A DNA stretch of 63,522 nt, the filler included, from Squatina squatina (lineage: Eukaryota), in assembly GCA_031763465.1 (NCBI GenBank). It is 4 parts of 4 records of this genome, joined end to end, with 100 filler letters (N's around TTAATTAATTAA, not from the genome) between each part and the next. Parts side by side here need not be neighbours in the genome. Positions count along the whole stretch, not along the records: positions 13,889 to 28,376 come from JARFOE010000100.1; 3 more parts are not named here. The stretch is one strand, 5' to 3'. The translations under genes and the position numbers were made by a program. The notes beneath the pieces were generated by a model. It was not told the origin of the DNA and searched no databases. It saw nothing but the letters and a program-made list of their open reading frames with translations. Positions 22,062 through 22,289 of the stretch are shown one piece after another. The stretch's first letter is position 1. Each line of letters opens with the position of its first letter.

Positions 22062-22289
22062 CAGTTACTTGCTCTGGTGTGAAGGACTGGGAGAAACCTT
22101 GCTCCCATTCGTATAACACATGACTGGTATCCACTTCTTCCTCTTCTGGGTTGCCCTTCCCACTCAGTGAAGGGGCTGTAGTCGTGGCTCCAGAGTGAAT
22201 GCCTGAATCCAAGTACGACTGCTGCTGCCAGTGACTGACCTGGGCTTTGCGATCTGGCTCCATGGCCATGTCCAGTTCCATCAAATCAG
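22062..22289 (-). CDS. CTNNB1: Beta-catenin exon 3-like coding exon (N-terminal GSK3/CK1/beta-TrCP phosphodegron region), isolated from the rest of CTNNB1
   Basis: Encodes (A)[75 protein letters not shown]. Acceptor ttcttcctcccgggcaacag|CTGAT, donor ACTG|gtaagt; 228 nt, phase 1-1, like vertebrate CTNNB1 exon 3. The symbol describes homology of this exon only. Confidence 0.95.

What the first reader, a model, noticed from the sequence alone, without database searches (positions are those of the whole stretch)
22062..22289. Orphan beta-catenin exon is nearly unchanged, with all regulatory residues intact
Against the human sequence as I recall it, only about 5 of 76 residues differ (A21Q, D56E, Q61H, Q76P, A80T). 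D32-S33-G34-S37-T41-S45 and lysines K19/K49 are kept, with no indels. This implies either a very recent duplication or purifying selection on the degron in its new context.
Basis: partly seen in the sequence, partly recalled or inferred. Interest (0 to 1): 0.7.

Follow-up and report, generated by a model that had tools for sequence, protein, structure and literature searches.

The report
Stray shark beta-catenin exon
A lone piece of the beta-catenin gene in a fragmented shark genome draft is no more conserved than the normal shark gene, so its conservation proves nothing, but it sits among stray pieces of two other genes that could in principle be spliced into one new protein.

Summary
Window 22062-22289 (minus strand) is an intact 228-nt beta-catenin degron exon with the five stated differences from human. 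No other armadillo-region exon was found in the window.

The inference fails. Four of the five differences are shared with a catshark's full-length CTNNB1 (74/75 identical), and ordinary orthologues differ from human by 0-12. Conservation alone therefore cannot separate orthologue, young duplicate and selected copy.

The context is odder. A CTNNB1 start-exon look-alike faces the opposite way 966 nt off, in the same contig. Two RNF216 exons (139 intervening residues missing) and one RALYL exon flank it on the same strand. Read in order they give 194 codons without a stop. However, each gene lies on its own block, cut off by artificial linkers in a draft of about 1-kb contigs.

Best reading: a young, rearranged partial duplicate whose degron has not had time to decay (0.45). 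Rivals: the true exon orphaned by the assembly (0.35), or a selected chimeric gene (0.13). No genomic DNA, reads or transcripts from sharks could be searched, so copy number and dS are untested.

The parts
22062..22289 (-). Beta-catenin (CTNNB1) N-terminal degron exon, residues 5-81 ('exon 3' numbering as in the human literature); 228 nt, phase 1-1
22168..22209 (-). Codons D32-S45: beta-TrCP docking motif plus GSK3/CK1 sites, unchanged
   Evidence: roles from passages of PMC12900645
22120..22122 (-). Q61H, the only difference from the catshark full-length protein; H in 1 of 64 distinct named segments
22290..22310 (-). Splice acceptor (AG and pyrimidine tract), moderate score
22056..22061 (-). 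Consensus splice donor GTAAGT
21061..21097 (+). Look-alike of the CTNNB1 start-codon exon (strong acceptor, 22-nt leader, M-A-S-Q plus one base, weak GT donor), antisense to the degron exon in the same ungapped contig; identity inferred, not shown
20139..22617 (.). Ungapped 2,479-bp contig holding both features; no repeat hit of 30 nt or more between 20500 and 22430
13538..13677 (-). RNF216 exon a (about residues 424-470 of P0125), 140 nt, phase 1-0, one private Q-to-P change
11003..11100 (-). RNF216 exon b (residues 610-641 of P0125, second half of IBR), 98 nt, phase 0-2
34050..34169 (-). RALYL internal exon following the RRM (about residues 81-120 of P0129), 120 nt, phase 1-1, one private L-to-V change
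8506..8577 (-). Unidentified 72-nt exon candidate with strong splice signals; open in two frames
13789..13888 (.). Artificial join (44 N, 12-nt six-frame-stop linker, 44 N) between the RNF216 block and the CTNNB1 block
28377..28476 (.). Artificial join of the same kind between the CTNNB1 block and the RALYL block

Best explanation
The exon is a shark-type CTNNB1 degron exon in a young, rearranged partial copy of the gene's 5' end. A segment carrying the start exon and the degron exon was duplicated, and an inversion then turned the degron exon against the start exon; the armadillo exons were never copied or were lost. The degron is intact because the parent is almost invariant and the copy is young (at most about 3% diverged if neutral), not because selection is shown. 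On its own the copy cannot make beta-catenin and most likely makes nothing. Shown: exon identity, intact splice sites, shark-type residues, absence of other exons from the window, the antisense look-alike. Inferred: that the look-alike is the real start exon, that an intact second CTNNB1 exists elsewhere, and the inversion.
For: (1) 74/75 identity to catshark CTNNB1. (2) A start-exon look-alike lies 966 nt away on the opposite strand with no gap between. The motif is expected 0.02 times per window (2 of 100 shuffles) and about 0.001 times per contig of this size. It lies 22 nt behind the 6th best of 7,683 scored acceptors, and only 2% of positions have so strong an acceptor upstream. M-A-S-Q starts 21 of 103 named beta-catenins. 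An essential single-copy gene cannot carry this inversion (established knowledge). (3) No next exon in 7,353 sequenced bases downstream and no sense-strand start exon in 5,687 upstream within the block; the human introns here are a few hundred bases (recalled). (4) The adjacent block holds a second broken-looking copy: two collinear RNF216 exons 2,217 sequenced bases apart with 139 residues missing. (5) One change in 178 non-synonymous sites fits neutral divergence of 0.6% (95% upper bound 3.1%), where the key residues usually survive.
Against: No second CTNNB1 copy could be looked for. The look-alike was noticed by eye before the pattern was written, its donor is weak (0.1 bit), and the same acceptor also pairs with a strong donor at 21306 to give a stop-filled 245-nt exon candidate, so the acceptor may not be independent evidence. 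No breakpoint repeat and no strand-skew switch was found between the two features. The 100-N gaps have unknown true size, and shark intron lengths for this gene were not available (searches gave nothing). Private changes are no more frequent than in true orthologues (RNF216 exon a: 1 against 0-6), so there is no sign of decay.
Confidence: 0.45

Rival explanations
1. It is simply this shark's only CTNNB1 degron exon. It looks orphaned because the draft is in pieces of about 1 kb, introns are long, and blocks from different chromosomes were strung together with linkers. It works as in all vertebrates: CK1 primes S45, GSK3 phosphorylates T41/S37/S33, and beta-TrCP binds and triggers ubiquitylation.
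For: 41 pieces, N50 1,847 bp, median 974 bp. Each of the three genes is on its own block between artificial linkers; such a linker is described as a separator of contigs concatenated along a reference (PMC3500351, one passage). RALYL and RNF216 are listed on contigs of different length in two batoids (Pristis 54.0 vs 103.0 Mb; Rhinoraja 82.2 vs 38.6 Mb; cluster-level figures), so the neighbourhood is not old synteny. Divergence is wholly orthologue-like. At gap 14692-14791 both contig ends carry the same repeat stretch at 82% identity, as a join through paralogous repeats would leave.
Against: It must treat the antisense start-exon look-alike as chance (about 0.001 per contig before allowing for hindsight) or as a misassembly without a visible repeat. 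It needs both flanking introns to be many kb long or the 100-N joins to be wrong. It does not explain the RNF216 gap inside one block.
Confidence: 0.35
2. A real, transcribed chimeric gene built by exon shuffling: RALYL exon, then the beta-catenin degron exon, then RNF216 exon a, then RNF216 exon b. The degron would put the new protein under Wnt/GSK3/beta-TrCP-controlled turnover, and selection keeps frame and degron.
For: All four identified exons are on the minus strand with intact splice sites, and the phases match at every junction: 194 codons, 0 stops, or 218 codons with the unidentified exon. Chance for the two cross-gene junctions is about 0.02 (using recalled phase shares). The degron exon would be out of frame with exon b directly; exon a restores it. 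The inferred inversion is what turns the degron exon to face the same way as its neighbours.
Against: Both cross-gene junctions span an artificial linker. No start or stop exon was identified. 0 of the 120 listed hits carry RNF216 or RRM domains (39 further hits were not shown); two searches returned only ordinary RNF216 (7 of 7) and RALYL (6 of 6). The pieces are not modules: no RING1, half an IBR, and no RING2 or RRM in the window. The unidentified exon's codon pattern favours the frame that would break the chain (G at first position 0.54 vs 0.04). A 2% coincidence is expected often in a genome-wide scan.
Confidence: 0.13
3. An assembly-made copy (haplotig or chimeric contig): the true start and degron exons were joined in inverted orientation by a library or graph error, with the normal gene assembled elsewhere.
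For: Short-read-type fragmented draft. An exact 293-nt duplicate at a contig end elsewhere in the window shows local assembly redundancy.
Against: No repeat in the contig interior to seed a graph misjoin.
Confidence: 0.07

Closest known systems
Vertebrate CTNNB1 degron exon (exon 3), best match Scyliorhinus torazame scyTo_0015193 (P0002)
   Same: 74 of 75 residues, all degron residues and both lysines, boundaries at A5/D6 and T80/D81.
   Different: No armadillo exons in the window; the start-exon look-alike is antisense; the neighbours are RALYL and RNF216 pieces.
Incomplete segmental duplicates in mosaic duplication blocks (HYDIN2, PMC5345166; readthrough fusions in segmental duplications, PMC6764479; abstracts read)
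   Same: Partial gene copies with intact exons, near-identical to the parent, placed beside unrelated sequence, with possible fusion transcripts and often relaxed selection.
   Different: Here the pieces are one or two exons from three genes, the joins are unverified, and there is no parent comparison or transcript.
Pack-TIR / transposon-captured gene fragments (PMC8277862, passages read)
   Same: Captured exonic fragments that can be expressed as chimeric RNAs.
   Different: Pack-TIR inserts have a median size of 224 bp between terminal inverted repeats; here the blocks are over 10 kb and no inverted-repeat pair brackets the exon.
Reference-ordered pseudomolecules with stop-codon linkers (PMC3500351, one passage)
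   Same: The same 12-nt linker core between N runs separates concatenated contigs.
   Different: That example is bacterial with 5-N pads; the pipeline behind this window is unknown.

Membership tests
Functional CTNNB1 gene | Degron exon with D32-S33-G34-x-x-S37, T41, S45 | tested here: met
Functional CTNNB1 gene | Armadillo-repeat exons downstream on the same strand | tested here: not met
   None in the window by tblastn with 11 named proteins; the window is gapped and ends 22 kb downstream, so absence from the genome is not shown
Functional CTNNB1 gene | Start-codon exon upstream on the same strand | tested here: not met
   The only match to the start pattern is antisense and downstream
Recent partial segmental duplicate | A second, intact parental copy with near-identical exon and flanks | not testable with these tools
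   No eukaryotic genome or read collection was searchable
Recent partial segmental duplicate | Breakpoints where similarity to the parent ends | tested here: inconclusive
   No repeat, fold-back or skew switch located
Recent partial segmental duplicate | Divergence low enough to be neutral | tested here: met
   1 change in 178 non-synonymous sites; an orthologue meets this too
Selected chimeric gene (exon shuffling) | Same strand and compatible exon phases | tested here: met
Selected chimeric gene (exon shuffling) | Physical contiguity of the parts | tested here: inconclusive
   Both cross-gene junctions span artificial linkers
Selected chimeric gene (exon shuffling) | Spliced transcript or annotated fusion protein | tested here: inconclusive
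   No fusion among the listed hits; no RNA data available
Selected chimeric gene (exon shuffling) | dN/dS below 1 against the parent, with appreciable dS | not testable with these tools
   No orthologous DNA available
Pack-TIR capture | Terminal inverted repeats and target-site duplication around the fragment | tested here: not met
   No such pair among the 25 inverted repeats listed for 18000-27000
Processed pseudogene | Fused exons without introns | tested here: not met
   Intronic acceptor and donor flank the exon

The most novel reading that the evidence does not exclude
A shark lineage recently assembled a new gene from single exons of three unlinked genes (RALYL, CTNNB1, RNF216), inverting the beta-catenin degron exon into frame, so that a transplanted Wnt-regulated phosphodegron now controls a chimeric protein: a natural case of degron transfer by exon shuffling in a vertebrate.
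Probability: 0.13. Interest if true: 0.8.

Novelty: new member of a known kind. Interest (0 to 1): 0.33.

Why it matters
As stated, the finding is ordinary: this exon is nearly invariant in all jawed vertebrates, so five differences from human is what a shark gives. As a young broken duplicate it would be one more partial segmental duplication. It would matter only if the in-frame chain is real and transcribed. A beta-catenin phosphodegron moved intact onto another protein would be a natural test of whether the degron is portable without the armadillo repeats, and such a product might also compete for beta-TrCP or the destruction complex (inference). One read-mapping run and one RNA-seq junction search would settle it.

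Tried and rejected
Pfam on the exon alone: 0 families. Pfam on 300 of 335 stop-free frames of at least 52 aa left of 54.6 kb: 5 weak hits, all under the curated cut-offs, three of them transposon-like. It missed the frames holding the CTNNB1, RALYL and RNF216-a exons, so it cannot exclude further exons.

My first guess that the 120-nt exon was F-box-like and the 72-nt exon WD40-like was wrong for the former (it is RALYL) and unsupported for the latter. The idea that the window is one RNF216 intron was rejected: only two RNF216 exons occur, both downstream of the degron exon.

The 72-nt exon stayed unidentified: 0 hits in PDB in either frame and 0 hits at E<=0.001 among 1.84 billion representatives for frame 0 with a 30-residue query (weak because short). 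Three other protein-like frames gave nothing significant. Rfam gave 0 matches. Strand skew and inverted-repeat searches did not locate an inversion breakpoint.

Cluster-member look-up for more shark orthologues could not be made. Paper searches found no report of this arrangement: shark + beta-catenin + RNF216 gave 2 irrelevant listings; shark genome + chimeric gene + exon shuffling gave 0; elasmobranch + intron length + CTNNB1 gave 0. Two shark genome papers were not held, and the exon-length search gave 0. Passages of a paper on a short-read finishing pipeline (PMC12182561) did not mention the linker. No supplements were read. No structure or complex prediction was run, because the degron-beta-TrCP complex is already solved and a pass would not separate the readings.

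Full report
1. Observation. Window 22062-22289 read on the minus strand is a 228-nt exon: two leading bases, 75 whole codons and one trailing base, between an AG acceptor and a GTAAGT donor. It matches zebrafish beta-catenin in PDB 2z6g at E 2.9e-36. Against the named human entry P0006 it differs at exactly A21Q, D56E, Q61H, Q76P and A80T without indels, and D32, S33, G34, S37, T41, S45, K19 and K49 are kept. tblastn with 11 named beta-catenins finds no other CTNNB1 exon in the window at E<1.

2. The comparison with human is uninformative. The best of 159 hits is the 742-aa CTNNB1 of the cloudy catshark, Scyliorhinus torazame. It shares A21Q, D56E, Q76P and A80T and differs only at residue 61. 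The window is thus from a cartilaginous fish, and four of the five changes are lineage residues. I compared 103 named proteins of the 120 listed (17 unnamed left out), giving 64 distinct segments. They differ from human by 0-12 residues (median 7; lamprey 24; unaligned ends not counted). K19, D32, S33, G34, T41, S45 and K49 are invariant in 64 of 64 and S37 in 63 of 64; H61 occurs in 1 of 64. A paper notes that mouse and human exon 3 are identical in protein and gives the CK1/GSK3/beta-TrCP cascade (PMC12900645, passages). If the copy were neutral, one change in 178 non-synonymous sites means 0.6% divergence (upper bound 3.1%), at which the eight key residues survive 58-90% of the time; above 5% neutrality is excluded. 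The data therefore allow an orthologue, a young neutral copy or a selected copy. dS could not be computed because no shark DNA was searchable.

3. Assembly. The window has 43 N runs and 41 pieces, with N50 1,847 bp. Three joins are 44 N, a 12-nt six-frame-stop linker and 44 N (13789-13888, 28377-28476, 51264-51363). A linker with this core is described as separating contigs concatenated along a reference (PMC3500351, one passage). The exon lies in a 2,479-bp contig inside the block 13889-28376.

4. Neighbours. A splice-signal scan followed by searches identified three more minus-strand exons. Two are RNF216: 13538-13677 and 11003-11100. Between them 139 residues of P0125 (471-609, RING1 and the first half of IBR by recalled domain layout) are missing within 2,217 sequenced bases and four gaps; no other RNF216 exon was found with 7 named proteins. 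One is an internal RALYL exon, 34050-34169, with no other RALYL exon found with 6 named proteins. RALYL and RNF216 are listed on contigs of different length in Pristis and in Rhinoraja, so the arrangement is not old synteny. Each gene sits in its own linker-bounded block. Private changes are one per exon, within the range of true orthologues (0-6 for RNF216 exon a).

5. Two things point away from a plain orthologue. First, at 21061-21097 on the plus strand, 966 nt from the degron exon with no gap between, lies a strong acceptor (6th of 7,683 scored), a 22-nt leader and codons for M-A-S-Q plus one base before GT. That is the form the CTNNB1 start exon needs to join this phase-1 exon; M-A-S-Q begins 21 and M-A-T-Q 42 of 103 named proteins. 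The motif is expected 0.02 times per window and about 0.001 times per contig. Against it: I saw it before writing the pattern, the donor is weak, the acceptor also pairs with a strong donor at 21306, and no breakpoint was found. If real, it means an inversion that an essential single-copy gene could not bear. Second, within the block there is no next exon in 7,353 sequenced bases and no sense start exon in 5,687, whereas the human introns are short (recalled). This depends on the 100-N joins being true, which is untested; one such gap shows the same repeat at both ends at 82% identity.

6. The chain. Read in genomic order, RALYL (phase 1-1), CTNNB1 (1-1), RNF216 a (1-0) and RNF216 b (0-2) give 194 codons with no stop, or 218 with an unidentified 72-nt exon at 8506-8577. 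Chance for strand and phase at the two cross-gene junctions is about 0.02 (phase shares recalled). Against a real gene: both junctions cross linkers; no start or stop exon is known; the pieces are not whole domains; the 72-nt exon's codon pattern favours another frame; and no fusion appears among the listed hits (120 of 159 shown; 7 of 7) or 43 (6 of 6).

7. Verdict. Best: a young, rearranged partial duplicate whose degron is intact by inheritance and youth (0.45). Rivals: the true exon orphaned by fragmentation and false joins (0.35), a selected chimeric gene (0.13), an assembly-made copy (0.07). These weights are my judgement. The closest known kinds are incomplete segmental duplicates with fusion transcripts (PMC5345166, PMC6764479; abstracts). 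Pack-TIR capture (PMC8277862, passages) and retrocopying fail their defining features. Searches found no paper on this arrangement; the library lacks most subscription papers and no supplements were read. Copy number, contiguity, dS and transcription all remain unchecked. Interest 0.33: the conservation itself is ordinary, and the score rests on the cheap-to-test chance of a real chimera.

Noticed in passing
window 11003-13677 (-): Two collinear RNF216 exons only 2.2 kb of sequence apart with 139 residues missing between them, in frame with each other; either an internally deleted duplicate or a misjoin.
   Followed up: partly
window 34050-34169 (-): A 40-codon RALYL exon after the RRM, present in annotated isoforms of five ray and shark species at 93-98% identity; it may be a conserved cassette exon.
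   Followed up: partly
window 8506-8577 (-): Strongly signalled 72-nt exon candidate with a coding-like codon pattern in frame 0; gene not identified.
   Followed up: partly
window 21061-21305 (+): The highest-scoring acceptor-donor pair in the window forms a 245-nt candidate with stops in all three frames, antisense to the degron exon's downstream intron.
   Followed up: partly
window 54652-62720: Tandem array of about three 2.5-3.0 kb units at 74-92% identity; a 293-nt exact duplicate ends at the contig edge (59861 and 62428), possibly assembly redundancy.
   Followed up: partly
window 9757-10008 (+), 47513-47815 (+), 32454-32660 (-): Weak Pfam hits below cut-off to DDE_Tnp_4, Myb_DNA-bind_4 and RVT_1: Harbinger-like and LINE remnants.
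   Followed up: no
window 22439-22580 (+): A decayed LINE reverse-transcriptase-like stretch (recognised from recall; short match to 7566-7600) begins about 150 nt upstream of the exon's acceptor.
   Followed up: no
window 46136-46492 (+), 35711-35995 (+), 17792-18215 (+), 42824-43348 (+): Protein-like open frames without identification; the first two were searched in PDB and the first in the atlas, with no significant hit.
   Followed up: partly
window 862-1485, 17447-17766, 37570-38456: Three N runs of irregular length (624, 320, 887), unlike the 10- and 100-N gaps; the 320-N run lies 4.3 kb downstream of the exon and could hide sequence, though its flanks show no splice signals.
   Followed up: no
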